A stretch of 64,000 nucleotides of DNA from Oxalobacteraceae bacterium. Its GTDB lineage: Bacteria; Pseudomonadota; Gammaproteobacteria; Burkholderiales; Burkholderiaceae_D. A program made the translations under genes and the position numbers. Under the pieces are notes generated by a model that was not told the DNA's origin, made no database searches, and saw nothing but the letters and a program-made list of their open reading frames with translations. Location of the stretch: assembly GCA_947374865.1 (NCBI GenBank), contig CANCDR010000010.1, positions 20,319 through 84,318 of the forward strand, read 5' to 3'. This document shows, one piece after another, positions 3,290-16,517 of the stretch. The first letter of the stretch is position 1, and the number at the start of each line of letters is the position of its first letter.

Positions 3290-3411
3290 GCGGCTGAAAT
3301 GCGCGAGGATATTGCGATGCTTTTGGCACAGATGTGCAATTTGACTTATCTTGCTAATGCCTCTATATTCTCGCCATTCAAGATTTTTGACAAATTTAAC
3401 AAAGGCCATCT

Positions 3412-4206
3412 ATGAGTATCGCCGCACCAGTAAGTATTGCCAGCACCCCAGCGCCACTGCAGGACGTGGAACAGCATCTGCGTGATCAGGTCGCCGCCTG
3501 CACGCTGATGCTCAATGATCTGGAGATCATGGGCTATAGCGGCCACGTCAGCGCGCGTTTGCCTGAGGGTCGCGGCTTTTTGATCCAGTCGGTCGATCAG
3601 AGTCGTGCATCGCTGCGTCCGGAACTGTTACTGATCTGCGATATGGATGGCTATTTAGTATCCGGGCCAGCCGGTCTGCGTCCGCCATCAGAAGTATTCC
3701 TGCATTCGGAAATTTTCCGTGTGCGTCCGGACGTCAATTCGATCGCCCATTTTCATCATGACCGCACGGCCTCCTTTACCCTGGCCGATGGCCCGCAGTT
3801 AGTCCCGGTTAAAAATCATGCCGTGCGCTGGGCGAATGGCATACCGGTGCACCCGAATCCCAATCATGTCAATTCCCCGGAGCGCGGCCGTGCGCTGGCG
3901 ACTACCCTTGGCGCGTCGCACGCTGCACTGATCCGCGCCCATGGCCAGGTCATCGTCGCTGAGAGCGTGCCGGGAGTCTTGATCGACAGTGTGCATTTCG
4001 TCGAAAACGCCGAAGCCATGTACGATGCCTGTATGCTCGGCCGTGTACTCCCGCTGAGCGCGGAAGAAATCGCTTCCTTTAGCAAAGACATCAAGCGCGA
4101 AAAACATATCAATAAACTGTGGACTTATTATGTCGGTCGCGCACAGTCACTCGGATTGTTGCCGCAGACCTGGAACCTCCAACCGAAACTCAGTACTGCC
4201 GCGTAA
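3412..4206 (+). CDS. Class II aldolase/adducin family protein
   Basis: 264-aa ORF with family-typical segments GHVSARLPEG..FLIQS, PSEVFLHSEIFRVRPDVNSIAHFHH and ALIRAHGQVIVAES. Confidence 0.8.
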   Translation: MSIAAPVSIASTPAPLQDVEQHLRDQVAACTLMLNDLEIMGYSGHVSARLPEGRGFLIQSVDQSRASLRPELLLICDMDGYLVSGPAGLRPPSEVFLHSEIFRVRPDVNSIAHFHHDRTASFTLADGPQLVPVKNHAVRWANGIPVHPNPNHVNSPERGRALATTLGASHAALIRAHGQVIVAESVPGVLIDSVHFVENAEAMYDACMLGRVLPLSAEEIASFSKDIKREKHINKLWTYYVGRAQSLGLLPQTWNLQPKLSTAA

Positions 4207-4231
4207 TGAGGTTTTTGCCCTCGTGAATTGA

Positions 4232-4426
4232 GGGCAAGTCCTGCCAGCACTGCTCGGCAACGAACCGGGACAAGGTCTCAGCAATCTTGACGATGCGCCG
4301 CTGGCAGAAATCATAGGCCGCGTTCCCTGGGCAGCAGAAGTATTTAATTACAGTGCGCCCGATACCGGCAACATGGAATTGCTGCAGATGTTCGGCAGCC
4401 ATGAACAAAAAAGTCGCTGGCTCAAG
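4232..4426 (+). pseudogene. Remnant (~65 codons) of an acyl-CoA dehydrogenase (ACAD10/11-like) gene
   Basis: The frame-2 translation between stops reads [51 protein letters not shown]. This matches the conserved N-terminal ACAD block (..GLSNLEYAPLAE..GR...[14 protein letters not shown]...G...QK..WL.PLL). Similarity stops at WLK and there is no upstream or downstream continuation. Confidence 0.65.
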
Positions 4427-4542
4427 CAAACGAAGAAGCAACGAAAGTCTTCCTACGGATCATCATGCCGCCATCAGTGCTGCCACGATAAACCTGATTT
4501 TTTACCTTTGCCGAGGCATGTCTAAAGTTGAGTAGCCATGCT

Positions 4543-4992
4543 TTAGCCGATTTCGGTATCTGTGGCGAACTTAAGATTACGCCGCAAAACTACCGGCGTG
4601 CCGCCATAAGCCCGTTTTGCCATCCATTGTGCCAGCGGCGCATCGAGATAGTCGGCATGTCCTGGAAACCAGCGCACCAGTTCTGCGACCAGAGGACGAC
4701 AGCGTTCAACCAAGCCATCCTGACTGAGTTGGGCAATAACTTCACGGGTCGACTTCATGACCGCGGCATGCTCATCTACATGGCAATCCGTGGCAGGAAA
4801 GGCCGTCGAGATCATCCATTGTTTTTCTTGCTCGAAATGCTGCTCAAGGTGCTCAGCAAAATGTTTTAGCGCCGGCAAAAACGCTGACTCCGTCGCATTC
4901 AGCAGCGTCTGCACCCGCTCAACAAACTCATGGTGCGTATCATCCATCGGGCCGTAGCCAAGCAAAAAAGCGTCATTCCATTCAAATTCCAA
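4543..4992 (-). CDS. Bacteriohemerythrin / hemerythrin-like metal-binding protein
   Basis: 149 aa. It opens with FEWNDAFLLGYGPMDDTHHEFV, followed by HFAEHLEQHFEQE and CHVDEHAAV (His/Glu ligand pattern of hemerythrin). Confidence 0.85.
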   Translation of the reverse strand: MEFEWNDAFLLGYGPMDDTHHEFVERVQTLLNATESAFLPALKHFAEHLEQHFEQEKQWMISTAFPATDCHVDEHAAVMKSTREVIAQLSQDGLVERCRPLVAELVRWFPGHADYLDAPLAQWMAKRAYGGTPVVLRRNLKFATDTEIG

Positions 4993-5035
4993 TTGATTCT
5001 TTCATTTTTCAAAAGCATCAGCTTATCACTTGCTT

Positions 5036-5070
5036 AGCTTGTGGGGTCAAGTCTTGACATGACAGTTTTT
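5036..5070 (+). repeat. Copy 1 of the 28-nt element (variant GGGGTCAAGTCTTGACATGACAGTTTTT) with shared left flank AGCTTGT
   Basis: Direct reading. It matches 5151..5186 except for one A/G difference. Confidence 0.9.
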
Positions 5071-5150
5071 AAGCAAATCTCCCAGCTGCGTTGAGCACCA
5101 TTGATCGCCATTTATAGGGAAAGTGTTGACTCAAATAAGCCTTGTATTGT

Positions 5151-5186
5151 AGCTTGTGGGGTCAGGTCTTGACATGACAGTTTTTT
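5151..5186 (+). repeat. Copy 2 of the 28-nt element GGGGTCAGGTCTTGACATGACAGTTTTT
   Basis: Direct reading. It lies 54 nt upstream of the 5240 start codon. Confidence 0.9.
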
Positions 5187-5239
5187 AAATTTTTCCCACG
5201 CAAAACGCGTCCGCATTTACTCTTGCAACAATCAAACCA

Positions 5240-6370
5240 ATGCAAATACACATATTATTTTCACTTTTTCTCTTGTCGATTTTTCTCTCGCCTGCCGTCG
5301 GCGCAGATGTGCGCTTAAAAGATCTGCATGTACCGTCCGGTTTTAAGATCGAGGTTTTGACCGACGCTGTTCCCAACGCTCGGCAAATGGCGATCGGCGG
5401 CAATGTGGACGGGCGCACGGTGCTTTACGTTGGCAGCATGAAGGCTGGCAAGGTCTATGCGGTGGAGCTGGAAAAGGGGCAGGCGGTAAAAGTACACACA
5501 ATTGCCACCGACCTGCAGCTGCCCGTCGGACTAGCTTATCGCGATGGCAATTTGTATGTTTCCGCGGTATCCAGCATCTTGCGGTTTGAGCATATCGATA
5601 GCCGGCTAGCCAATCCGCCCAAGCCCCTCGTCATCACCGACCGCTTTCCACCAGAAACGCACCACGGCTGGAAATTTATCGCCTTCGGTCCCGATGGATG
5701 GCTGTACGTTCCGGTCGGCGCGCCTTGTAATATTTGCGATCCTGATCCGCGCTATGCCAATATTCAACGCATGAAGCCCGACGGTAGTGCGCTCGAAACC
5801 GTCGCCCGCGGCGTGCGCAATTCTGTGGGATTTGACTGGAATCCGCTCGATCAAAGTTTGTGGTTCACGGAAAATGGCCGCGACATGATGGGCGACGACA
5901 TGCCCAATGATGAGCTCAATCATCTTGAAAAATCGGGCCAGCATTTTGGCTATCCCTATTGTCATCAAGGCGATACGCCGGATCCGGAATTCGGCGCGAA
6001 GCGTCAATGCGGAGAATTTACACCGCCGGTGATCAAACTCGGCGCGCATGTCGCCTCCCTGGGAATGCGCTTTTACACCGGCAAACAATTTCCACAGGAA
6101 TATCGGAATAATATCTTTATCGCAGAACACGGCTCATGGAACCGCAGCATCAAAGTGGGCTACCGCATCGTGCGCGTCGCCTTGGATCCTGCTGGTCGTG
6201 TTTTGAAGCACGAGCCATTTGTGGATGGCTGGCTATACAAGGACGCTAGTGGCAAAGAGCTTGCTTGGGGACGTCCTGCAGATGTCCTCAATATGCCTGA
6301 TGGCTCATTGCTCATTAGTGATGATTTGGCAGGAGTCATTTATCGCGTGCGCTATGTTGGCGCGCAATAA
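5240..6370 (+). CDS. PQQ-dependent sugar dehydrogenase / sorbosone dehydrogenase family protein, secreted
   Basis: 376 aa with an N-terminal signal peptide (MQIHILFSLFLLSIFLSPAVGA). Family-typical blocks: HHGWKFIAFGPDGWLYVPVGAPCN, WFTENGRDMMGDDMPNDELNHL, GQHFGYPYCHQG. Confidence 0.85.
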   Translation: MQIHILFSLFLLSIFLSPAVGADVRLKDLHVPSGFKIEVLTDAVPNARQMAIGGNVDGRTVLYVGSMKAGKVYAVELEKGQAVKVHTIATDLQLPVGLAYRDGNLYVSAVSSILRFEHIDSRLANPPKPLVITDRFPPETHHGWKFIAFGPDGWLYVPVGAPCNICDPDPRYANIQRMKPDGSALETVARGVRNSVGFDWNPLDQSLWFTENGRDMMGDDMPNDELNHLEKSGQHFGYPYCHQGDTPDPEFGAKRQCGEFTPPVIKLGAHVASLGMRFYTGKQFPQEYRNNIFIAEHGSWNRSIKVGYRIVRVALDPAGRVLKHEPFVDGWLYKDASGKELAWGRPADVLNMPDGSLLISDDLAGVIYRVRYVGAQ

Positions 6371-6393
6371 ATAAGTTTGATGCATGACAACTT

Positions 6394-6422
6394 AAAAAAC
6401 TGTCATGTCAAGACCTGACCCC
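6394..6422 (-). repeat. Copy 3 of the 28-nt element, inverted orientation
   Basis: The + strand reads AAAAAACTGTCATGTCAAGACCTGACCCC. It overlaps the stop codon of the glycosyltransferase ORF. Confidence 0.9.
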
Positions 6423-7238
6423 ATGGTTTTTTAGGCCGCGGCTTGCTTCGATGGTGCGGTTTTGTGCGCGTGCGAGTACGAGGTCGCGGTTGCTTGATGC
6501 TTGGTCACGTTGGGCTTCGCGGTGCCAGAGGTGGAATACTTCGGTGGCGAAGGCGCCGTCTTTGCGCATCACGCCGGCGTTGAATAGCCTTACTACCAGG
6601 TCCGAATCTTCATGGCCCCAGCCGAGGAAGCTTTCATCAAAGCCATTTACGAGCGCCAAATCGCTGCGCCAGACACCCAGATTACAGCTCTTGATACGAC
6701 GCCAGCTAAAGCTTCGGCGTTCACGCCCCAAGTCAGGCCAGCGTAGCACCCACTGCAACAGTTTGTTGACGTGACCTTGCAAACGCCAACCTAGTTTGCT
6801 TGCCAGAGGAACGCGCGAGAGGTCGATCCCTTCGGCCATGACACGCTCGCTCAGTGCCGCACTCATGAGCACCCTGCTCCCCGAGACCAGAAAACCAGGT
6901 CGCGCCAGCTGGCGGTGACGCGCGACAAAATCACGTTGGGGTATGCAGTCCCCATCCAGAAAAACAATATACGCACCATGCGCTGCCAATGTGCCACGAT
7001 TGCGCGCCATCGCCGCACGAAAGCCTTCATCACTTTGCCAAACATGCACCAGCGACACCGGCGACTCAGCCCGCAAGCGGTCGATCATTTCCCTTGTGTT
7101 GGCAGTGGAGCCGTCATCGGCGATAATGATTTCAAAATGCTTCTCACTCTGCACAAAACAGGCCCGAATCACCGTCTCGAGCGCATCGGGTCGGTTATAT
7201 GTCGTAATGACAAGAGAAATAGTCGCGTCTAGATGCAT
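6408..7238 (-). CDS. Family 2 glycosyltransferase
   Basis: 276 aa. GT2 signature ISLVITTYNRPDALE...IIIADDGS...FLDGDCIP and a C-terminal GWGHEDSDL block. The last four codons plus the stop lie inside repeat copy 3. Confidence 0.85.
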   Translation of the reverse strand: MHLDATISLVITTYNRPDALETVIRACFVQSEKHFEIIIADDGSTANTREMIDRLRAESPVSLVHVWQSDEGFRAAMARNRGTLAAHGAYIVFLDGDCIPQRDFVARHRQLARPGFLVSGSRVLMSAALSERVMAEGIDLSRVPLASKLGWRLQGHVNKLLQWVLRWPDLGRERRSFSWRRIKSCNLGVWRSDLALVNGFDESFLGWGHEDSDLVVRLFNAGVMRKDGAFATEVFHLWHREAQRDQASSNRDLVLARAQNRTIEASRGLKNHGVRS

Positions 7239-7294
7239 GCTGTTTGATCGAACTTTTCACATACCAAAACAGCAGATTACCTATTTAAAGTTGC

Positions 7295-8551
7295 ATGAAC
7301 AATAGACTCAAGCAAATAATTTCACCAAAGCAGCTGGTCGCGGGCCTACTGGTGTTTTTGCTGCCATTTCTCAGCCTCGTGACCCTGTGGGGCGTGAGTG
7401 GCGTCAGCTTCGGCATTGCGGCTGTCGCTGCGCTGATCATCATCACCGGCCAGGGACGCAGCGTGATGGCACCACATTGGCGCGCCGTGCGTCCGGTGTG
7501 CTTGGCTTTCCTGCTTCATTTTCTATTCACTCTGGCTTGTCTGATTCTGCGTAGCGAGGCAATCCTGTCCGCGCTCGAAAGGCCGGCGCGCATGTTGTTG
7601 GCAATATCTGCGCTGATGCTGGTTTTGTGGGCACGTCCCGATCGTCGATTTCTTTGGTGGGGCGTTGCCGGCGGTGCCTTGGCGGGTGCTTTTCTGGTCG
7701 GTTATCAGAGGCTCGGTCTGGACATGGATCGTCCCGGTGGTTTGATGAATGCGATCACCTTTGGCGATATGTCGCTCTGTCTGGGTTTGATTTCGATCGC
7801 CGCCATGATCGACCAGCGCAGCGCGCGACAAATGATATGGCCCATCATCGGTCTGATCGCCGGTCTGGCCGGATCGGTCATGACAGGCACGCGGGGTGGC
7901 TGGCCTGCGTTGGCGTTGGCGGCTGTGATCATGGTTCGCTATAGTCATGCGCTCAATAGTCGGCGTGTGCGTGCCTGGGTAATCGTGAGTTTTGTCTTGG
8001 TCGGCGCTACCTATTTCATCCCTGGCAGCGGCGTGAGCGAGCGCGTCGACGAAGGTATCGCCGGGATCAGCAGTTATTTTAATGGTGGAAGTGTCTTCAC
8101 CATCATGGGTATCCGGCTCGAGCTCTGGAAGAGCGCCAGCATGCTGATCGCCGAACATCCCCTGCTGGGTATCGACTACCAGGCCGCTGCTGTGCGTATG
8201 ACCGAATGGGTCGCTGCAGGTCGTCTGGATCCCGTGGTACTGACCATGCCGCACTTACACAATGAATACTTACAGAAATGGGTGACGGGCGGTGCCGTCG
8301 GTTTGGTGATCTGGCTAGCGACCCTGATCACCCCAATAATTTTTTTCGCCCGCCAGCTCGCTCCAGGTGCTCAAGCAAACAAAACCGTCATCGCCTGCGC
8401 CCTCGCCGGCCAATTCGTCGTCACGAGCTATCTGTGCTTTGGCCTCACCGAAGTCATCTTCTGGTCAGTCAAAGCCAGCCTCTTCTATGCACTCATGGTC
8501 TTCCTACTCATGGGCCTCTGCCTCAACGAAACCCCTGGGGTCAGGTCTTGA
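7295..8551 (+). CDS. O-antigen ligase (Wzy_C) family membrane protein
   Basis: 418 aa and polytopic (about 10 or more hydrophobic segments). It has a Wzy_C-like central loop region (..GTRGGWPALALAAV..) and is divergent from the GT2 gene. The last four codons plus the stop lie inside repeat copy 4. Confidence 0.75.
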   Translation: MNNRLKQIISPKQLVAGLLVFLLPFLSLVTLWGVSGVSFGIAAVAALIIITGQGRSVMAPHWRAVRPVCLAFLLHFLFTLACLILRSEAILSALERPARMLLAISALMLVLWARPDRRFLWWGVAGGALAGAFLVGYQRLGLDMDRPGGLMNAITFGDMSLCLGLISIAAMIDQRSARQMIWPIIGLIAGLAGSVMTGTRGGWPALALAAVIMVRYSHALNSRRVRAWVIVSFVLVGATYFIPGSGVSERVDEGIAGISSYFNGGSVFTIMGIRLELWKSASMLIAEHPLLGIDYQAAAVRMTEWVAAGRLDPVVLTMPHLHNEYLQKWVTGGAVGLVIWLATLITPIIFFARQLAPGAQANKTVIACALAGQFVVTSYLCFGLTEVIFWSVKASLFYALMVFLLMGLCLNETPGVRS

Positions 8552-8672: not shown

Positions 8673-8700
8673 AAAAACAAAAAAGCCTACAAGCTTGTGA
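8673..8700 (+). repeat. Left copy of a 28-bp direct repeat AAAAACAAAAAAGCCTACAAGCTTGTGA
   Basis: 27/28 identical to 16392..16419 in the same orientation. Sequence beyond CTTGTGA diverges. Confidence 0.9.
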
Positions 8701-8737
8701 TCTATACGCCTTTTTTCTCTATCGAATGCCCGTTTGA

Positions 8738-11710
8738 TTAGCCGTGCAAGCTGATCAGTCCACCCGGCGACACTGATGTCGCTACAGTAAACGAATAAAT
8801 ACCAATCAATTCAACGACAGAGTCATTCATCGAGATTGCCGAAGAACTAATATCATGCGCACTGACGATATACGTATTTCCTTGGAATACGAAAGCTTCC
8901 AAACTGCCATTATTTGAGGCGCTAGCAGCCCCAGTCGCCGCTGAAGCCATATTTGCCGCAGTCAACCATGTCGATAAAGACCTCGCATCCCCCGCAACAT
9001 TGGTAATTGTGTTGATTATCCCCATTCGCAGTAAATTATTATTTAATGTCATCGTCAGGGTATCTGAGGAAGTGGCCGTGTTGTTCAAGCCTGAAATAGT
9101 GCTGTAATGTATTCCATCAGTTATACCGACCGTCACCGCATCATGGGTAAAATTAGAGTGAGCGCCTAATTTAATTGTCAATGCATCACCCAATCCTGCG
9201 GCAATAATAGTTGCTGACCCACTACCAACTGTAATATTCCCAGACACGCCATTGCCGCTGGCTTTGATCGTTCCAAGTCCACCGTTACCCAGTGTGATAT
9301 CAATCGTGCCGACAGAGGATGTCATAACAGAATTATTGGCGCCATCACCTAAGTTCACTGTTTGGCTAGAACCAACAACGCCCGAACCTAAAATCACCGT
9401 ATCGTAAGCGCCATTCCCCATCGTGACTTTTACGACGTTTCCTGCTGCTGTGGCACCTGATAATGTCACGTAATTATGCGTTCCTGCATTGCCAGATACA
9501 TCCTTTGTCGTGATGCTGACATTGCCTACGGAGGCACCAGTTACATAGTCACCCAAGCCAGAACCTAATGCGACGACTTGAGTGGACCCAGCAACACCTG
9601 GTCCTAAAGTAACATAATCACCGATTCCATTTCCCATGGTTATGGTGTTCGTTGCTGTCGCTGAGGTTGCGCCAGCCAAGGTCGCATAATCGCCCGCACC
9701 ATTGCCAAATGTCAGCGTAACGTTGCCTGTAGATACAACCGTAGCATAATCGCCTACGCCAGCGCCCAAGGTGAAATTAATCGATCCGGCAGCAACAGCA
9801 GCACTGGTAATGTAATCACCCGCACCATTTCCCAGAATTACGGTTTGATTGCCAACATCTGAAGCACTAGACAAAACGACATAGTCCCCTGCATTCCCAC
9901 CCATTTTTACAGAATCGTTCGCAGCTGAAGCAAGCGTCACCGCTGTCCAAGCAGAAGCCACAGCATTGGCTGCATTAGTAGCCAAAATTCCCGCCGCAGT
10001 CACGGCATTCGTTGCAGCCAAGTCATCTGTCGTCACTGTTGTGAGCTTCGTTACCGCTATTAAGTTCGCCGCTGCCGTCACCGCTGATGCGGCTAAAGTC
10101 TGCGCGTCCAAGGCATTCTTCGATGCCAGTGTGGCAGCATCAACCGAGGCATTAGTCAAAGTAAGCGTGGTTGCAGAATCCGCTGCGGCGGTGGCCTTAG
10201 CAGCGTTTAACGTTGCCAAGGTTGCCGCCGTAACTGCACTATTCGCAGATGCGGTGTAAGTCGACAAGGCCAAATCCGCGTTCGCTTCACGCGACAATTC
10301 TAGGCTCACGACGGATAAATTGGTATTTGCTTTAGATAAGGCACTCTCAGCAGCAAGGACAACATTTTTAGCCTTCGTCACCATTACAGTCGCTGCATCG
10401 ACTGCGCTCGTCCCTGCGTCATCGTCGGTAAGAATCTTGGTAAGAACAGTCGCTGCTTTGTAAGTCGTGGCGGATGACATCACGCCTTTAGCCGCATCTT
10501 GGTAAGCATCGGCATTTGACTTTGCCAGCGTCGCCGCTGTGACGTATGCATTGGCATTCGCCAGTGATGTCGCAGCAAGATTTGCAGCAGATGTGGCCAA
10601 GTCACCATTCACGGTAGCCGCATCAGCAGCAGATGCAGCAAACAATTTAGCATTGTTAAAGCTGCCCAAGACTATCACCGCATTTTGTTCGTTGGCGACA
10701 TCTTTAGTCGCCTGTTGGGAATCTAGATTTGCTTGTAGCTTCCCTTGAACGCTGGCATTTTCTGCTGCAGCGACTACTTTTTGCTGACCCGCAGTAACGG
10801 CACTTGCCGCGACTGATTTTGACAATTTCGTCACCGCAATAGCGTTACTTGCCGCCACATCATCCGAGGTATCGCTAGTGGCATCCGTAGCAGCTTTCAA
10901 TTCGGCAGCAGCAGTCGATGCCAACGCAGCATAAGCAAAATAAGTTGCCGCTGTTGATGAAGCCAGATTTGCCGCAACAGTGGCCACTGCCGCCAAGGGA
11001 ACCGTGTTAGCAGCAAGTGCTGCATTATCAGCAGCAAGGGCAGCACTTGTAGCGGCGGTCGCATAAGTATTGACGTTTGCTGCAGCAATGCCGTAATTCT
11101 TCAAGGCAGATGTCGCGCTTATCGCCTTAAGAGCTTGCATGGCAGCGATTGCTTCGGCATTTGCTGTATCTGTCGCAGCGCGATAACCGGCATCAGCCGA
11201 ATAAGAAGCGGCAGCATTTGCAGCAGTGACGTCAGTCGATGTCACCAGTTTAAGAATGGCCGTAGCATCAGTTACGCTAGTGCCTTGTAATGTTGCGCCA
11301 AAATTTAAGGCAACCGCGACTTTATTCATAAACAGCGCTTGTGAGATATAGCCAGCTGCATCATTGCCAGCGTAATCCAAAACAGCAGCAATGAGTTTAA
11401 CGACAACGCCGCCAACACTGGCACCAGAGGCATTCAGTTCTGCAGTCCAATGCGCGAGTCCCTCAGCATCTGGCATGCGTCCCAGAACATTGGTATAGAA
11501 GTTAGTAACGATTTGTCCATTATTCAAATTCAATGGGTAAATCGTGCGTGCGGCTTCTGTTGTATACATTTGTTGTGCAATGGAGGAAAAGCTTGCCCCC
11601 TTGCCCATCAGGTCAACCCAGAAAGCCAAACCACTCGCTTCAGGGGCGCGTGCAAACAGGGATACGTAGAGTTGTGTTACTTGCGTCGTCATTGCGCTAT
11701 GCATAGCCAT
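8738..11710 (-). CDS. Large leaderless surface/secreted-type protein: N-terminal DUF4214-like module, Ala/Thr-rich central region, G-x-G-x-GDY repeat block, distinct C-terminal domain
   Basis: 990-aa ORF with no signal peptide and no Cys. N-terminal motifs are LYVSLFARAPEASGLAFWVDLM and FYTNVLGRMPDAEGLAHWTAEL. Repeats include GNAGDYVVL, GNGAGDYITS, GAGVGDYATV, GNGAGDYATL, GNGIGDYVTL, GSGLGDYVTG. Confidence 0.8.
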   Translation of the reverse strand: MAMHSAMTTQVTQLYVSLFARAPEASGLAFWVDLMGKGASFSSIAQQMYTTEAARTIYPLNLNNGQIVTNFYTNVLGRMPDAEGLAHWTAELNASGASVGGVVVKLIAAVLDYAGNDAAGYISQALFMNKVAVALNFGATLQGTSVTDATAILKLVTSTDVTAANAAASYSADAGYRAATDTANAEAIAAMQALKAISATSALKNYGIAAANVNTYATAATSAALAADNAALAANTVPLAAVATVAANLASSTAATYFAYAALASTAAAELKAATDATSDTSDDVAASNAIAVTKLSKSVAASAVTAGQQKVVAAAENASVQGKLQANLDSQQATKDVANEQNAVIVLGSFNNAKLFAASAADAATVNGDLATSAANLAATSLANANAYVTAATLAKSNADAYQDAAKGVMSSATTYKAATVLTKILTDDDAGTSAVDAATVMVTKAKNVVLAAESALSKANTNLSVVSLELSREANADLALSTYTASANSAVTAATLATLNAAKATAAADSATTLTLTNASVDAATLASKNALDAQTLAASAVTAAANLIAVTKLTTVTTDDLAATNAVTAAGILATNAANAVASAWTAVTLASAANDSVKMGGNAGDYVVLSSASDVGNQTVILGNGAGDYITSAAVAAGSINFTLGAGVGDYATVVSTGNVTLTFGNGAGDYATLAGATSATATNTITMGNGIGDYVTLGPGVAGSTQVVALGSGLGDYVTGASVGNVSITTKDVSGNAGTHNYVTLSGATAAGNVVKVTMGNGAYDTVILGSGVVGSSQTVNLGDGANNSVMTSSVGTIDITLGNGGLGTIKASGNGVSGNITVGSGSATIIAAGLGDALTIKLGAHSNFTHDAVTVGITDGIHYSTISGLNNTATSSDTLTMTLNNNLLRMGIINTITNVAGDARSLSTWLTAANMASAATGAASASNNGSLEAFVFQGNTYIVSAHDISSSAISMNDSVVELIGIYSFTVATSVSPGGLISLHG

Positions 11711-11835
11711 TAATAATCTCCATCAATTCAAAGTTGCGCCGCTATCGCAAGTGAGGTCATCATTGTTAGAATGTGCAATGTCAGCGTCGGTAAAGGTGTC
11801 GTCCCCAGTCAGGGGGGTGTATATGAGGGCTTATG

Positions 11836-11851
11836 AGCAGGAACTGTGCCA
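11836..11851 (-). promoter_or_regulatory. Candidate sigma-54 (-24/-12) promoter facing the 990-aa gene
   Basis: The - strand reads TGGCAC-AGTTC-CTGCT with GG-N10-GC spacing, about 125 nt upstream of the start codon at 11710. A sigma-54 activator gene lies 3 kb away. Confidence 0.55.
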
Positions 11852-11872
11852 TGCATTAAAAATGCATGGCAC
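11846..11872. repeat. Perfect 12-bp inverted repeat GTGCCATGCATT-AAA-AATGCATGGCAC overlapping the -24 element
   Basis: Direct reading. The two arms are exact reverse complements. Confidence 0.9.
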
Positions 11873-11966: not shown

Positions 11967-12443
11967 TCATGAAAGTAGCATTCCCCCTTGAGGGTGCATC
12001 TCCTTGCTATAACTCCTTGATGGGTCCCCCACTGGCAACTTGTCATATTGCCCCTCCAATACACGCTCTACCGCATCCATTAATATAAGTTGCGTGAAAG
12101 GTTTGATCAGGTAGGCGTCGCATTCAGCGGCCATCCCGCGTTCAACATCGTTACTGCGACTGAGTCCGGACATCAAAATGACGCGTGTTTGATGTTTTAA
12201 TATTGAATGCGTCTTGATGCGTTTGCAGACTTGATAACCATCCAAAAATCCTGGAAACATCACGTCTAGCAAGATGAGACAAGGTCGCAGATGTTGCACA
12301 ATACGCCAGGCATCGTCACCAGTATTCGCCTCATGCAGAATCCGCTTATTATCCTCAAGGCTTACCCTGAGAAGTCGGCGCATTTCAAACTGGTCATCGA
12401 CGATGAGAATATTCTGTATCATTGCCAAGCCTTTTTTATGCAT
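11967..12443 (-). CDS. Single-domain response regulator (CheY-like receiver)
   Basis: ILIVDDQFEMRRLL..., phospho-acceptor context LILLDVMFPG, and conserved Lys context AYLIKPF. The start may instead be the internal Met (MIQNILIVDD). Confidence 0.85.
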   Translation of the reverse strand: MHKKGLAMIQNILIVDDQFEMRRLLRVSLEDNKRILHEANTGDDAWRIVQHLRPCLILLDVMFPGFLDGYQVCKRIKTHSILKHQTRVILMSGLSRSNDVERGMAAECDAYLIKPFTQLILMDAVERVLEGQYDKLPVGDPSRSYSKEMHPQGGMLLS

Positions 12444-12541: not shown

Positions 12542-12557
12542 AGCAAAAATCGCGCCA
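12542..12557 (-). promoter_or_regulatory. Candidate sigma-54 (-24/-12) promoter facing the CheY-like gene at 11967..12443
   Basis: The - strand reads TGGCGC-GATTT-TTGCT with GG-N10-GC spacing, about 100 nt upstream of the ORF start. Confidence 0.5.
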
Positions 12558-12696: not shown

Positions 12697-13110
12697 CTAG
12701 GGAGTCGTCGCCACAGTTGATGCATATCCTCCTCGCATTAATACCGCGCGAATGGATTTGATGATTTCATCATGACGAAATGGCTTAGCAACAAATGCTG
12801 AAATATGCCCCATTTTCAAACGTTGTTTAATAATGGCATCGTCTGCATAAAAAAATCCTGATACTAAAATAGCTGGCGCTAAGCATGTCGTCTCGTTACG
12901 AATCCGTATGATGAGTTCAAGGCCTTCAATGTCATTGAGCTTGGCATCGACCAACATGAGCTGGCAGCTGTGTTCGTGTAGCCATTGCATCGCCTCTTGA
13001 CCGCTAGCAGCTAGGGCAACGACAAAGCCATTTTTAAGTAGAATCATCTCCAGCACCCAACGCACATCGGGTTCGTCATCAACAACGAGTACAGTGATGC
13101 CCTCAGTCAT
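12697..13110 (-). CDS. Single-domain response regulator (CheY-like receiver)
   Basis: VLVVDDEPDVRWVL, LMLVDAKLNDIEG, AFVAKPF. The start overlaps the kinase stop by 4 nt. Confidence 0.85.
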   Translation of the reverse strand: MTEGITVLVVDDEPDVRWVLEMILLKNGFVVALAASGQEAMQWLHEHSCQLMLVDAKLNDIEGLELIIRIRNETTCLAPAILVSGFFYADDAIIKQRLKMGHISAFVAKPFRHDEIIKSIRAVLMRGGYASTVATTP

Positions 13111-14624
13111 GTGACTTGCGCTAATAAGGGTAGGCGTACAACAAATAAACTGCCCACGCCTACCTCACTGAATTCCACATTGATCGTTCCCTTGAGTTGC
13201 GCCACAATGGTGTGCGAAATGGATAAGCCGAGTCCTGTCCCCTGCCCTACAGGTCGAGTGGTAAAAAAGGGGTCGAATAACTTCGCCATAAGAGCAGGCG
13301 CAATGCCGCAGCCAGCATCACGCACGGAAAATACCGCCTCGTCATGCTCTTTCAGCATAGATACGATCACATCGCCACCGGTCGGCATTGACTGAGCGGC
13401 GTTTAAAATCAGATTCATCATCACCTGCCTTAGTAGACTTTCATTCCCCAACACAAATACAGGTGGATCTTCGTAGACTTCCAAAAAATTTATCTTGGTG
13501 AGCTTTGCTTGTGGCGTCAGAAAACTGACCGTATCTCGCGCCAAGTTGACAAGGTTGACTGATTCAATTTGATCGATAGTGGAAGGACGCGCAAAACGCA
13601 GCAAATTTTCAATAATCACAGAAGAGCGTTCAATGCCATCCACTATTTTCTTTACGCATGCCTGTTGAAACACGGCATCAATTTCTGGCTCGAGTAAAAA
13701 CTGCGCAGCCGAATAACTGACTGCCAGCGGATTACGCAACTCATGCGCTATCCCGCCGGCCATGACGCCAAGCGCAGCTAGTTTTTCTGACTGTCGTAGA
13801 TGCTCCTCTAGAGCACGGCTTTCAGACAAATCCTTACCCACAGCGACGAATCCATTGACCATACCAAAGTCGTCACGGATCGACGAAAACAACCATTTCA
13901 CCGGTATTCGCAATCCTGAACGGGTAACAAGATTAAGCTCCAAAAATGTTACCGTACCGCTTGTGACCAGTTCTCGAATCTGGCTCGACTCAGACTGCGT
14001 TGTCTCCCAAAAATCGCTTGACATACGACCTTGTACATCCTTTAAGCTATAACCAGAAATTCGTTCCGCATTAGCATTCCAACTGGTAATCATGCCATTA
14101 AAATCCGTTACGATAACTAGGTCGTTGCCACTTTCAATGACGCCCTCTAAATAACGTAAGTCCATTCTGGCTTTTGCACTGACCCTCAATTTTTCGGTAA
14201 CATCATCTAGTACAAGCATGACATTTTCAATGCTGTCTCCTGATTTTACCGGTATTAAGGTATACAAATAAATCCGGAGGGGCATCTTTGGCTGGCGATA
14301 AGTCATCAACGCACTGGGGATCACTACACCCTTGTCAAATAGTTTCGTAATGGCTGTTTCTAGCTGCGAAATTTCTAAGCCATCATCAGGCATGAGATCG
14401 CGCAAGCGCATGCCAACAGCACACCCTTCAGGACGACCAAAATTTTGATCAGCATGCCATTTTTCCGATATGACGCAAAGTGAGGGGTCGATAAGAATGA
14501 GTGAAAAAGGTAGGTTTTGCAAAAGCAGGTTGTACATTTTTTCATGCCATCCCGCCTCATGCAATACTGATGGCGGAATGTTCGCTACACTATTCGCCAA
14601 GCTACTAAGTTCGGGATTATTCAA
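13107..14624 (-). CDS. Cytoplasmic PAS-domain sensor histidine kinase
   Basis: 505 aa with no obvious TM segments. PAS-like regions are followed by the H-box GIAHELRNPL and HATPase_c motifs (N-box LILNAAQS, G-boxes RDAGCGI and GTGLGLSI). Confidence 0.85.
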   Translation of the reverse strand: MNNPELSSLANSVANIPPSVLHEAGWHEKMYNLLLQNLPFSLILIDPSLCVISEKWHADQNFGRPEGCAVGMRLRDLMPDDGLEISQLETAITKLFDKGVVIPSALMTYRQPKMPLRIYLYTLIPVKSGDSIENVMLVLDDVTEKLRVSAKARMDLRYLEGVIESGNDLVIVTDFNGMITSWNANAERISGYSLKDVQGRMSSDFWETTQSESSQIRELVTSGTVTFLELNLVTRSGLRIPVKWLFSSIRDDFGMVNGFVAVGKDLSESRALEEHLRQSEKLAALGVMAGGIAHELRNPLAVSYSAAQFLLEPEIDAVFQQACVKKIVDGIERSSVIIENLLRFARPSTIDQIESVNLVNLARDTVSFLTPQAKLTKINFLEVYEDPPVFVLGNESLLRQVMMNLILNAAQSMPTGGDVIVSMLKEHDEAVFSVRDAGCGIAPALMAKLFDPFFTTRPVGQGTGLGLSISHTIVAQLKGTINVEFSEVGVGSLFVVRLPLLAQVT

Positions 14625-14723
14625 GGGGAAATCCTTGTTGGACGTAGGTTTTAAAATAGGGGCAGCGTCTTGCTCGGATCACATCCCGACATTGCGCGTT
14701 TGCAGTACATTTAAATCGGCTCA

Positions 14724-16292
14724 TTACAAGGATGTGTCTTGCATGACCTGTAGCGTTGAAATCGAATGATCTTTGAGTTTTTTTAGCAAAGTCTTGTAAT
14801 CAATGTGCAGCATTCGCGCCGCCTTCGCTTTATTGCAGCGCGTCTGGCGCAGCACTTGAATGATGATTGCCCGCTCCATTTGCGCGTTCACCAACGTAGT
14901 CAATTCTTTTAATGGCAAATCGCTGCCGTGTTCAAGCAGCTCGGCAGCAGAGGAAAACAATGTTTTTACATTACCAAGGGCCTCATTAAACCAAGACTGT
15001 TCATCGGAGGATGTTTCAGCCGCTACCAGCGCAGCTTCAAGCCCGCCAATCATTCCCAAATGTTTGGGTGAAATAATGCCATCGTCGTCATCGCACATTA
15101 AAACGGCGCGGCGTAATTGATTTCGTAATTCCCGCGCATTGCCAGGCCAGCTATAGTGATGAATCAGATTCCATGCCGCCTGATTAAGCCCTTGTATCTG
15201 CTTGCCCAGTTCTTGATTGGTCATGCTGAGAAAGCGGGTGACAAGATAATTAAGATCATCGCTTCGCGACTGTAAAGAAGGAATAAATATCGTATATTCC
15301 GCAATCCGATGATAAAGGTCACCTCGGAAAGTCTGCATTTTCACCATCGCCAATAGATCAGCATTGGTGGCCGCCACCACGCGGAAATCAACTTCTAAGG
15401 TCTTACTGCTGCCAATACGATGAATGCGTCGCGTCTCCAGTACACGCAGTAATTTCCCTTGTGCTGATAAGGGTAAATTGCCGATTTCATCGAGAAAAAT
15501 CGTGCCGCCGGCTGCCAGCTCAAACGCGCCAGCTTTGGCTTGATGCGCACCCGTGAATGCCCCTTTTTCGTGGCCGAATAGTTCGCTTTCAATCAGGGTA
15601 TCGGGAATCGAGCCACAATCAAGCGCTACAAACGGTTGATTGCACCGAAGGCTGAGTGCATGAATCGCTTGGGAGACCAGTTCTTTACCTGTTCCTGATT
15701 CGCCAGTCACCATGACGGAAAAATTCGTTTTTGCCACGCGCTCTACGTCGGCTTGAATTTCCATTACCGCCGAACTGCTGCCCATTTGATCGACGAGTAA
15801 TCCGGGGGAAAATGCCGGCTGAAGAACTTGTAGAACATGACGTCTTGCATCAATCCCGATCAACGCATTGCGAAGCGTAAGGACGATATCCTGATTACTA
15901 AAGGGTTTGACCACGTAGTCAAAGGCGCCAGCATGGATTGCGCGCACCGCATCCATGGTGTTGCCATTTCCCGTGATCATAATGACAGGAATCGATCTAT
16001 CAATTGCCTTGAGTCGTTTGAGTACTTCAAAACCATCGATATCGGGTAAGCCAACATCGAGAAGTACAAGATCGGGCGGGGAATCTCGAATGATTTTGAG
16101 CGCCGCTTCCCCATCAGCGGCTTCAATGACGCGCATGCCGTTTTTAGTGACAATGTTAGATAAAATCCAGCGAACATCCTCTAGATCATCAACGATTAAA
16201 ATGCTGGATGCGACGGAGGCGATTTTGATTGATATCCTATTGATGAAGTTGCCATAAAGGAAATTAAATACCCTGCTGAAAAATAGTACCAT
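14724..16292 (-). CDS. Sigma-54-dependent response regulator (NtrC family enhancer-binding protein)
   Basis: Receiver ([25 protein letters not shown]), AAA+ sigma-54 interaction domain ([23 protein letters not shown]) and a C-terminal Fis-type HTH ([20 protein letters not shown]). The N-terminal 25 residues are uncertain. Confidence 0.9.
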
Positions 16293-16391: not shown

Positions 16392-16419
16392 AAAAACAAA
16401 AAAGCCTACAACCTTGTGA
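16392..16419 (+). repeat. Right copy of the 28-bp direct repeat AAAAACAAAAAAGCCTACAACCTTGTGA
   Basis: 27/28 identical to 8673..8700. It forms part of the tRNA-Pro terminator. Confidence 0.9.
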
Positions 16420-16428
16420 GTTGTAAGC
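16392..16428 (-). terminator. Intrinsic terminator of tRNA-Pro
   Basis: The - strand reads GCTTACAAC-TCACAAG-GTTGTAGGC followed by TTTTTTGTTTTT, immediately 3' of the tRNA. Confidence 0.75.
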
Positions 16429-16440
16429 TTTTGAATTAAT

Positions 16441-16517
16441 TGGTCGGGGCGAGAAGATTCGAACTTCCGACCCCATGCACCCCATGCATGTACGCTACCA
16501 GGCTGCGCTACGCCCCG
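16441..16517 (-). tRNA. tRNA-Pro (anticodon GGG)
   Basis: 77 nt. Acceptor CGGGGCG/CGCCCCG, discriminator A plus CCA, anticodon arm CATGC-ATGGGGT-GCATG, T-loop GTTCGAATC. Confidence 0.9.

What the first reader, a model, noticed from the sequence alone, without database searches (positions are those of the whole stretch)
8738..11710. Leaderless, Cys-free 990-aa protein with an unusual four-part architecture
Reading the translation gives four regions:
- Residues ~10-130 form a DUF4214-like module (LYVSLFARAPEASGLAFWVDLM ... FYTNVLGRMPDAEGLAHWTAEL).
- About 450 residues are almost only Ala/Thr/Ser/Asn/Val/Leu/Asp/Lys, which is probably an extended helical stalk.
- About 230 residues carry at least six G-x-G-x-GDY(V/I/A)(V/T) units plus degenerate ones, spaced roughly 20 residues apart: GNAGDYVVL, GNGAGDYITS, GAGVGDYATV, GNGAGDYATL, GNGIGDYVTL, GSGLGDYVTG. 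This suggests a beta-helix or beta-roll-like solenoid.
- A C-terminal region of about 150 residues ends ...FVFQGNTYIVSAHDISS...ELIGIYSFTVATSVSPGGLISLHG.

There is no N-terminal signal peptide, and I saw no cysteine. Both features are typical of type I secretion substrates and S-layer-type proteins. No ABC/MFP/TolC secretion genes are in the window.

The C-terminal region may correspond to a described 'tail' domain of betaproteobacterial surface proteins, but I cannot verify that from memory.
Basis: partly seen in the sequence, partly recalled or inferred. Interest (0 to 1): 0.6.

Follow-up and report, generated by a model that had tools for sequence, protein, structure and literature searches.

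The report
Secreted stalked surface protein, DUF4214 head
This gene most likely encodes a large cell-surface protein of a freshwater-type betaproteobacterium. It would be exported by a type I secretion system encoded elsewhere in the genome and switched on by its own neighbouring sensor genes. It is an unusual variant of a known kind of bacterial coat protein, not a new kind of system.

Summary
A 990-aa, Cys-free, acidic (pI 4.5) ORF lies at 8738..11710 on the minus strand.

It has four parts:
- an all-alpha DUF4214 head (residues 1-172, AF2 pLDDT 92-98, phycobilisome-linker-like fold)
- a ~430-aa Ala-rich region predicted as six long helices
- a confidently predicted two-sheet beta-solenoid built from ~22-residue I-T-L-G-N-G-A-G-D-Y-V units that no Pfam or NCBIfam model recognises
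- a rare C-terminal tail (FxFxGNTYxV...VVELxG)

The head and the tail type define a family of nearly Cys-free, ~1000-1400-aa proteins. In other contigs these sit beside ABC/MFP/OEP type I secretion genes and O-antigen-type glycan genes. The window's own genome has that locus on another contig, next to a paralog with the same head and tail. The window itself has no secretion genes.

The gene has a sigma-54-type promoter. It ends a low-GC five-gene segment (NtrC-type activator, PAS kinase, two receivers) beside tRNA-Pro.

Best reading: a conditionally expressed, type I-secreted surface protein held on surface glycan by its DUF4214 head, as in Psh of Pseudomonas putida and RsaA of Caulobacter. 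It is a new variant of a known kind. Nothing here is tested experimentally.

The parts
8738..11710 (-). Coding sequence of the 990-aa Cys-free acidic protein (stop codon at 8738-8740)
   Evidence: the identical protein with the same neighbours is on 13 metagenome contigs
11195..11710 (-). Residues 1-172: all-alpha DUF4214 'head' (two DUF4214 stretches). Proposed surface-glycan anchoring module.
   Evidence: Pfam PF13946 53 bits. AF2 pLDDT 92-98 with ten helices. Foldseek top hits are all phycobilisome linker domains, prob 1.0, TMt ~0.45, E ~1e-2. 46-58% identical to the N-terminal pieces of 14 homologues in alignment A2. At least 12 head-like modules occur in the own genome.
9905..11194 (-). 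Residues 173-602: Ala-rich helical stalk
   Evidence: 88% A/T/S/N/V/L/D/K, 1 Pro. AF2 helices of 61, 40, 69, 59, 124 and 39 residues, pLDDT 52-88. No homologue outside composition-driven alignments.
9101..9904 (-). Residues 603-870: Gly-rich ~22-residue repeats (consensus I-T-[LF]-G-[ND]-G-A-G-D-x-V) forming a two-sheet beta-solenoid
   Evidence: Units listed. AF2 pLDDT 82-97 with alternating strands. No Pfam, NCBIfam or RTX HMM hit. No significant PDB or viral fold match; the weak hits are nearly all beta-helix proteins.
8741..9100 (-). Residues 871-990: C-terminal tail with invariant F..G-N-T-Y and a following VVELxG strand. Proposed type I secretion signal / cap.
   Evidence: Alignment A3. 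Shared with own-genome paralogs C24:3023-6826 and C16:30134-33322 and with P0004, P0010, P0018, P0022, P0024 and others. AF2 confidence is low.
11718..11721 (-). Shine-Dalgarno-like GGAG, 8 nt before the ATG
   Evidence: read directly from the sequence
11836..11851 (-). Sigma-54-type promoter TGGCACagttcCTGCT (10 of 11 consensus positions), about 125 nt upstream of the start codon
   Evidence: Only 95 sites of this quality exist on both strands of the 3.27-Mb genome. rpoN is present. An NtrC-type activator lies 3 kb upstream.
11846..11872 (.). Perfect 12-nt inverted repeat (3-nt spacer) whose promoter-proximal arm overlaps the -24 element
   Evidence: pair I4
8673..8713 (-). Hairpin plus U-run just after the stop codon. 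It is an 85% copy of the tRNA-Pro terminator at 16392-16432.
   Evidence: family D3; folds of -11.1 and -20.1 kcal/mol
11967..12443 (-). Single-domain response regulator (CheY-like), with its own sigma-54-like site at 12542-12557
12697..16292 (-). Presumed regulatory operon: NtrC-type sigma-54 activator (14724-16292), PAS histidine kinase (13107-14624) and receiver-only regulator (12697-13110)
   Evidence: Pfam domains; the same gene order is seen on metagenome contigs
16392..16517 (-). tRNA-Pro(GGG) (16441-16517) and its terminator (16392-16432), which is the other copy of the direct repeat bracketing the five-gene low-GC segment
   Evidence: segment GC 44-52% against 54-56% in the flanks

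Best explanation
The ORF encodes a Sec-independent, type I-secreted cell-surface protein. It belongs to a family defined by a ~170-aa N-terminal DUF4214 head and a C-terminal 'FxFxGNTYxV...VVELxG'-type tail. Its relatives come from unnamed metagenome contigs and related genomes. The window's own organism is an Oxalobacteraceae (Burkholderiales).

Proposed course of events:
1. The adjacent PAS kinase phosphorylates the NtrC-type activator, which opens a sigma-54 promoter 125 nt upstream of the gene. This step is inferred.
2. The unfolded chain is recognised through its C-terminal tail by the PrtD/AprD-type ABC-MFP-OEP system on contig C24 and leaves the cell C-terminus first. This step is inferred.
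3. Outside, the Gly-rich GxGxGD units fold into a two-sheet beta-solenoid that caps the chain and prevents back-sliding. Folding is probably Ca2+-assisted, with one acidic Gly-turn per ~22-residue coil. The fold is predicted; the Ca2+ role is inferred.
4. The ~430-aa helical region forms an extended stalk or bundle.
5. The DUF4214 head emerges last and holds the protein on surface glycan (O-antigen). This is inferred by analogy with Psh and RsaA.

The product would be a conditionally displayed coat, spacer or adhesin layer. It might also mask phage receptors.
For: - Architecture: head, stalk, solenoid and tail are shown.
- Substrate hallmarks: no Cys, pI 4.5, N-terminus buried in a folded domain.
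- Family: 17 proteins of 992-1696 aa share the head at E<=3e-21 (a weaker 571-aa hit, P0019, E 7e-4, is set aside). All 17 have 0-1 Cys and a similar C-terminal pattern; most carry RTX motifs, and one is named 'S-layer protein' by its source.
- Context of relatives: ABC + AprE-type MFP + OEP genes follow the head-family genes of P0012 and P0014. Glycosyltransferase, acyltransferase, rml or Wzm/Wzt genes flank P0008, P0012, P0014 and P0022.
- Own genome: a PrtD-type ABC (751 bits, cut-off 510), a HlyD MFP (421 bits), an OEP and two GT4 genes lie at C24:10242-17945. They are followed by dnaE, as in the P0014 contig, and sit 6.6 kb from a 1268-aa paralog with the same head, RTX motifs and tail.
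- Regulation: two 10/11 sigma-54 sites lie in the correct orientation in the two short intergenic regions downstream of a sigma-54 activator. The genome-wide density is about 1 per 69 kb per strand, and rpoN is present.
- Literature: Psh (RTX + DUF4214) is T1SS-exported, acts at the O-antigen and shields against phages (bioRxiv 10.64898/2026.09.02.748959). DUF4214 is named a likely surface-anchoring domain in SFB (PMC12780176).
Against: - No experiment of any kind supports this.
- The protein has no canonical RTX repeat: PF00353 finds nothing in it. It also does not match the only curated T1SS C-terminal domain tested, TIGR03661.
- The tail is predicted with low confidence.
- No secretion genes are in the window, so assigning the protein to the C24 system rests on a paralog.
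- Glycan binding by the head is by analogy only. Even for Psh the authors say they cannot determine how it contacts the O-antigen.
- The stalk model has only moderate confidence and rests on almost no homologous sequence.
Confidence: 0.68

Rival explanations
1. It is a true S-layer subunit. The secreted protein self-assembles into a 2D crystalline lattice over the outer membrane, as RsaA does, rather than acting as an individual stalked protein.
For: One family member is named 'S-layer protein' by JGI. The family is linked to T1SS and O-antigen-type genes as RsaA is. RsaA appears among the weak fold hits (ranks 15 and 37).
Against: The fold hits to RsaA are not significant (E 2.2 and 5.7). The genome carries at least three head+tail paralogs and many other DUF4214 proteins, and this copy is under inducible sigma-54 control. 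That fits an accessory surface protein better than the main constitutive lattice. There is no ortholog even in the same genus.
Confidence: 0.2
2. It is type I-secreted but released, not retained. It would be a free exoprotein such as a biofilm-matrix component, an adhesin towards particles or other cells, or an ice- or mineral-binding protein whose flat Thr/Tyr-rich solenoid face is the working surface.
For: The solenoid carries stacked Tyr and Thr positions (GDY[VIA]T). A Ca2+-dependent beta-helical antifreeze adhesin domain is among the weak fold hits (3p4g, rank 45). The nearest named relatives of the organism include cold-water Herminiimonas species.
Against: The fold hit is insignificant (E 7.3). 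The conserved head is the one element shared by the whole family, which argues for a common cell-side function such as anchoring. No binding data exist.
Confidence: 0.12
3. It is a phage- or island-derived fibre or depolymerase-like protein, brought in with the low-GC segment beside tRNA-Pro.
For: The segment has lower GC and is bracketed by 41-nt direct repeats next to a tRNA gene. Beta-helix tailspikes appear among the weak fold hits.
Against: There is no PHROG hit and no significant viral fold match. The segment holds no integrase or phage gene. The head and tail tie the protein to a cellular T1SS family.
Confidence: 0.03
4. It is not exported at all. It would be an intracellular structural or scaffold protein whose DUF4214 head works like a phycobilisome-linker-type protein-protein adaptor.
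For: The head's only structural relatives are phycobilisome linker domains. No secretion genes are adjacent.
Against: Absence of Cys, acidic pI, a Gly-rich solenoid, a tail shared with RTX paralogs, and family context next to T1SS genes are all typical of exported proteins.
Confidence: 0.05

Closest known systems
Psh (PP_1794) of Pseudomonas putida KT2440 with its AprD-type type I secretion system (bioRxiv 10.64898/2026.09.02.748959)
   Same: Both have a DUF4214 helical module plus a Gly-rich beta-repeat domain and lack a signal peptide. Both are linked to a PrtD/AprD-type T1SS and to O-antigen genes. Psh acts at the cell surface and masks phage receptors.
   Different: Psh has RTX repeats N-terminal and DUF4214 C-terminal. 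Here the DUF4214 is N-terminal, a 430-aa helical stalk is inserted, and the repeats are not RTX by HMM. The C-terminus is a separate tail, and control is by a sigma-54 cassette. The own genome also has Psh-like proteins with RTX plus C-terminal DUF4214.
RsaA S-layer protein of Caulobacter crescentus with RsaD/E/F (PDB 6Z7P, 6P5T)
   Same: Both are ~1000 aa, nearly Cys-free and acidic. RsaA is T1SS-exported through an uncleaved C-terminal signal. Its N-terminal domain holds it on the LPS O-antigen, and its Ca2+-dependent beta-rich body faces outward (own knowledge; 6Z7P's title states the O-antigen binding).
   Different: There is no sequence similarity, and the fold similarity is not significant. 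RsaA's anchor is not DUF4214. RsaA has no long helical stalk and is constitutive and highly abundant.
Head-family paralogs and homologues (own-genome C24:3023-6826 and C16:30134-33322; P0004, P0010, P0018, P0022, P0024)
   Same: They share the same DUF4214 head (46-58% identity over the N-terminal pieces aligned in A2) and the same tail motif, WFQFGGNTYVVE...VVKLTG. P0022, P0023 and P0024 also share the last GxGxGD-type coils.
   Different: Their cores are Thr/Ala/Gly-rich beta repeats with GGxGxD RTX motifs in place of an Ala-rich helical stalk. Several sit beside the T1SS or glycan genes, whereas this copy sits in a sigma-54 regulatory cassette.
RTX beta-roll (Pfam PF00353) and the Ca2+-dependent 19-residue beta-helix of Marinomonas primoryensis ice-binding adhesin region IV (PDB 3P4G)
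   Same: All have a short Gly-rich turn ending in Asp, followed by x-hydrophobic-x strands. All form a parallel two-sheet solenoid placed just before the C-terminal secretion region of a T1SS substrate.
   Different: The turn here is G-x-G-x-G-D, not G-G-x-G-x-D. There is one turn per 20-24-residue coil, not two per 18. PF00353 does not detect it, even in proteins made of 8-10 clean units. Ca2+ binding is untested.

Membership tests
DUF4214 (Pfam PF13946) | Match to the family HMM above the gathering score | tested here: met
   53 bits against a cut-off of 23.2, E 3.7e-14, two stretches. The predicted fold matches phycobilisome-linker domains.
RTX proteins (HemolysinCabind, PF00353) | Tandem GGxGxDxUx nonapeptides detected by the HMM | tested here: not met
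   No hit at E<=1 in the protein. A six-frame genome search finds RTX in six other ORFs (four above the cut-off) but not in this gene. There are zero GG.G.D matches against five G.G.GD matches.
Type I secretion substrates | No N-terminal signal peptide | tested here: met
   The N-terminus is a conserved helix of the folded head. This was judged by inspection only, as no SignalP-type tool was available.
Type I secretion substrates | Uncleaved C-terminal secretion signal recognised by an ABC transporter | not testable with these tools
   Indirect only. The tail is shared with RTX-bearing paralogs and homologues encoded beside T1SS genes.
Type I secretion substrates | ABC + MFP + outer-membrane factor present in the genome | tested here: met
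   A full set lies at C24:13399-17945: TIGR01842 751 bits, TIGR01843 421 bits, PF02321 180 bits. Two more ABC+MFP pairs lie on C6 and C7.
Type I secretion substrates | Acidic, Cys-poor, with Gly-rich repeats ahead of the signal | tested here: met
   pI 4.52, 0 Cys, solenoid at residues 603-870.
T1SS C-terminal target domain, VC_A0849 subclass (TIGR03661) | HMM match in the C-terminal ~90 residues | tested here: not met
   No NCBIfam hit at E<=10 for the tail or for six homologous tails. The genome has no match at all.
   NCBIfam 20.0 and Pfam-A give nothing. No paper uses the term. I could not look the model up by name.
Psh-type RTX-DUF4214 phage-shielding proteins | N-terminal RTX domain plus C-terminal DUF4214 | tested here: not met
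   The domain order is reversed and RTX is absent. The resemblance is functional, not membership.
RsaA-type S-layer proteins | Sequence or fold similarity to RsaA; lattice formation | tested here: inconclusive
   No sequence hit to any PDB chain. Foldseek E values are 2.2 and 5.7. Lattice formation is not testable here.
Sigma-54-dependent genes | GG-N10-GC promoter close to TGGCAC-N5-TTGCW, rpoN in the genome and a bacterial enhancer-binding protein | tested here: met
   A 10/11 site lies at 11836-11851. rpoN scores 461 bits. The activator carries Sigma54_activat, 221 bits. Actual dependence is untested.

The most novel reading that the evidence does not exclude
The I-T-L-G-N-G-A-G-D-x-V unit (~22 residues, one acidic Gly-turn per coil) may be an undescribed repeat class that replaces canonical RTX nonapeptides as the extracellular Ca2+-driven folding ratchet of type I substrates. 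In this protein it would sit on a ~430-residue helical stalk above a DUF4214 glycan anchor, giving a sigma-54-switchable 'stalked' surface shield or adhesin. The repeat is rare: 25 representative clusters out of 1.84 billion. It also builds small stand-alone proteins that no Pfam model recognises.
Probability: 0.3. Interest if true: 0.55.

Novelty: new variant of a known kind. Interest (0 to 1): 0.36.

Why it matters
DUF4214 is widespread and still formally of unknown function. This genome shows it at the head of one protein family and at the tail of another, and both families look like type I substrates. That strengthens the view that DUF4214 is a general surface-retention module.

This protein adds three points to that picture:
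- a type I-style substrate with no canonical RTX repeat, which has instead an unannotated Gly-rich solenoid repeat
- a very long helical spacer between the anchor and the solenoid
- a self-contained sigma-54 / two-component cassette with this surface protein as its only non-regulatory gene

The cassette would make a clean system for asking when bacteria choose to change their outer coat. If the coat works like Psh, it bears on phage-host dynamics in freshwater Burkholderiales.

Tried and rejected
- PDB by sequence. The whole protein gave only a designed helical protein at E 0.94. The head profile A2 gave nothing.
- Word-index homology search on residues 760-990 found nothing. The exhaustive representative search was needed.
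- The search for related loci in genome contigs with the protein found no relative.
- Phage origin is rejected. There is no PHROG hit, no PADLOC hit and no significant BFVD fold match.
- Cassette-type antigenic variation by recombination between heads, as in Campylobacter fetus sap, is rejected. The head DNA is only 67% identical to the nearest paralog, and the segment is single-copy.
- An 'empty site' test for the tRNA-Pro segment in the same-genus genome was inconclusive. tRNA-Pro and its terminator are conserved there, but the neighbouring genes differ (a TRAP transporter), so that side has no synteny.
- P0021, the second-best representative hit, was discarded. It is an unrelated repetitive protein that matches only a short low-complexity stretch.
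Handedness, Asp/Tyr ladders and helix packing could therefore not be measured.
Full report
**Observation**

The ORF is real and lies on the minus strand at 11710->8738. It encodes 990 aa, with an ATG start and GGAG 8 nt upstream.
- It has no cysteine and is 22% Ala, 12% Thr and 9.5% Ser. Its pI is 4.52 and its mass is 97 kDa.
- The quoted motifs are all present. GGNAGDY sits at 604, and G-x-G-x-GDY sits at 627, 649, 669, 693 and 716, spaced 20-24 residues. About five degenerate units follow.
- G.GDY occurs five times, against at most two in 20000 shuffles of that region.
- The identical protein, with the same neighbours, is present on 13 metagenome contigs, so it is not an assembly oddity.

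**Anatomy**

*Head, residues 1-172.*
- Pfam finds DUF4214 above threshold.
- AF2 gives a ten-helix domain at pLDDT 92-98.
- Its only structural relatives are phycobilisome linker domains (prob 1.0, TMt ~0.45). This agrees with the CATH superfamily assignment quoted for DUF4214 in the Psh preprint.
- The N-terminal residues are part of this fold and carry family-invariant positions. There is therefore no signal peptide.

*Stalk, residues 173-602.*
- The region is 88% A/T/S/N/V/L/D/K, with one Pro.
- AF2 predicts six helices of 39-124 residues at moderate confidence.
- Nothing homologous was found.

*Solenoid, residues 603-870.*
- AF2 predicts a regular two-strand-per-coil beta-solenoid at pLDDT 82-97.
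- Seventy units from this protein and twelve relatives give the consensus I-T-[LF]-G-[ND]-G-A-G-D-x-V, with a period of 20-24.
- The Gly-turn resembles the RTX turn but sits in a different register: G-x-G-x-G-D against G-G-x-G-x-D. It occurs once per coil.
- PF00353 does not detect it here, nor in small proteins built from 8-10 clean units.
- No PDB or viral structure matches significantly. The weak hits are nearly all beta-helix proteins.

*Tail, residues 871-990.*
- The region aligns with the C-termini of a few proteins. F, G-N-T-Y and a later G are invariant, and a VVELxG strand is conserved.
- AF2 confidence is low here.
- An exhaustive search of 1.84 billion representatives with residues 600-990 found only 25 proteins at E<=1e-3.
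- No Pfam or NCBIfam model hits the tail or six homologous tails at E<=10.

**Relatives and their context**
- Seventeen proteins of 992-1696 aa share the head at E<=3e-21, 30-65% identical in the search table and 46-58% over the head pieces aligned in A2.
- These seventeen have 0-1 Cys. Most carry GGxGxD motifs, and they end in variations of the same tail pattern. One is named 'S-layer protein' by its source.
- On long contigs, two head-family genes (P0012, P0014) are followed by ABC + AprE-type MFP + OEP genes.
- The genes for P0008, P0012, P0014 and P0022 are preceded by glycosyltransferase, acyltransferase, Wzm/Wzt or rml genes and by a recurring FecR-like + TPR pair.
- P0002, the closest head relative, follows a kinase + LuxR-type regulator pair.

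**The window's own genome**
- The genome is 3.27 Mb in 44 contigs. It is an Oxalobacteraceae close to Herminiimonas, judged from a housekeeping gene.
- It has at least 12 genes with this module.
- Three genes share both head and tail: this one, C16:30134-33322 and C24:3023-6826. A fourth is cut by a contig end.
- The C24 paralog lies 6.6 kb from two GT4 genes, a PrtD-type ABC (751 bits), a HlyD MFP (421 bits) and an OEP. These are followed by dnaE, which is the same order as on the P0014 contig.
- Two further ABC+MFP pairs lie on C6 and C7.
- The genome also has RTX proteins with a C-terminal DUF4214, the Psh arrangement. One of them is an S8 protease inside this window at 29666-31738.
- The same-genus genome has head modules but no ortholog of this protein.

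**Surroundings in the window**
- Upstream on the same strand lie an NtrC-type sigma-54 activator, a PAS histidine kinase, a receiver-only regulator and a second CheY-like receiver.
- A TGGCACagttcCTGCT site sits 125 nt before the start codon. A second 10/11 site precedes the CheY-like gene.
- The genome has 95 sites of this quality on both strands, about one per 69 kb per strand. Two correctly oriented sites in two ~250-nt spacers beside an activator are therefore unlikely to be chance.
- rpoN is present.
- A perfect 12-nt palindrome overlaps the -24 element.
- The five genes have 44-52% GC against 54-56% in the flanks.
- The segment is bracketed by 41-nt direct repeats, 85% identical. One is the terminator of tRNA-Pro(GGG), and the other now follows the 990-aa gene. 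There is no integrase in the segment.
- Downstream, convergent and outside the repeats, lie a Wzy_C protein and a GT2. Given the glycan links of the family this may be meaningful, but it is untested.

**Mechanism**

I read the protein as a type I-secreted surface protein.
- *Shown:* the four-part architecture, the substrate-like chemistry, family membership by head and tail, T1SS genes in the genome next to a paralog, and the sigma-54-type site with its regulators.
- *Established for T1SS in general (own knowledge of HlyA and CyaA work):* recognition of an uncleaved C-terminal signal, export C-terminus first, and Ca2+-driven folding of Gly-rich repeats outside the cell as a ratchet.
- *Inferred here:* this tail is that signal, the GxGxGD solenoid plays the RTX role, and the head holds the protein on surface glycan.

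The last inference rests on two analogies. One is Psh. The other is RsaA, whose N-terminal domain binds the O-antigen (PDB 6Z7P title). The SFB literature also names DUF4214 as a likely anchoring domain.

The sigma-54 cassette suggests conditional rather than constitutive display.

**Comparison and novelty**

The protein is not an RTX protein by HMM. It is not a Psh-type protein by domain order, and it is not demonstrably RsaA-like. It does appear to work like all three.

Earlier notes of this scan on other genomes reached similar readings for DUF4214-bearing secreted proteins, so the kind is known. What differs here:
- the N-terminal position of the module as a family-defining head
- the long helical stalk
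- the unannotated repeat in place of RTX
- the rare tail
- the dedicated sigma-54 control in a low-GC tRNA-linked segment

I rate it a new variant of a known kind, of moderate interest. All functional statements are untested.

Noticed in passing
own genome contig C24:1-8500 (outside the window): The 1268-aa head+tail paralog (3023-6826, minus strand) is flanked by two tyrosine integrase genes that are 70% identical to each other (785-2008 and 7191-8498). A further head fragment (60% identical to this protein's head) is cut by the contig end at C24:8-370. It looks like tandem 'integrase + surface protein' units inserted beside the T1SS locus.
   Followed up: partly
window 29666-31738 (-): A 690-aa subtilase (Peptidase_S8) carries a C-terminal DUF4214 module. 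At least four RTX proteins elsewhere in the genome end in the same conserved '...KGD..GYVA.LLDNK...LIG' DUF4214 tail, which is the Psh-like arrangement.
   Followed up: partly
own genome contig C2:219970-237237 (-): A 5756-aa open frame has at least seven internal copies of the DUF4214 head-like module.
   Followed up: no
L036, L124, L125, L126 (metagenome and genome contigs of head-family members): A FecR-like protein plus a TPR protein lie immediately upstream of the head-family gene in four unrelated contigs. In two of them there is also a CHASE2-guanylate cyclase and a cNMP-binding Crp-type regulator. This is a different regulatory solution from the sigma-54 cassette seen here.
   Followed up: no
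window 11846-11872: A perfect 12-nt inverted repeat, GTGCCATGCATT-aaa-AATGCATGGCAC, has one arm containing the -24 TGGCAC of the sigma-54-type promoter. It could be a regulator binding site or an RNA hairpin.
   Followed up: no
window 8673-8713 and 16392-16432: A 41-nt direct repeat (85% identical) brackets the low-GC five-gene segment. One copy is the tRNA-Pro terminator. The copy after the 990-aa gene folds less well (-11 against -20 kcal/mol). The same-genus genome keeps the tRNA and terminator but has different neighbours.
   Followed up: partly
P0020 (152 aa, ENA ERZ1426853, 1.6-kb contig): A fragment 91% identical to residues ~873-990 is preceded by a type IV pilin-like leader (MFKRAAFTLIELTLV...). 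It is either an assembly or gene-calling chimera, or a reuse of the tail as a separate domain. No DNA was available.
   Followed up: partly
window 6408-8551: A Wzy_C (O-antigen ligase/polymerase-type) gene and a GT2 gene converge on the 3' end of the 990-aa gene, just outside the repeat-bracketed segment. Whether they make or attach the glycan that the head binds, or glycosylate the Ser/Thr-rich protein, is open.
   Followed up: no
P0028-P0039 (representative-library hits): Small proteins of 170-450 aa consist almost entirely of 8-10 clean I-T-[LF]-G-[ND]-G-A-G-D-x-V units. They have no Pfam match, so this is an unannotated repeat family.
   Followed up: partly
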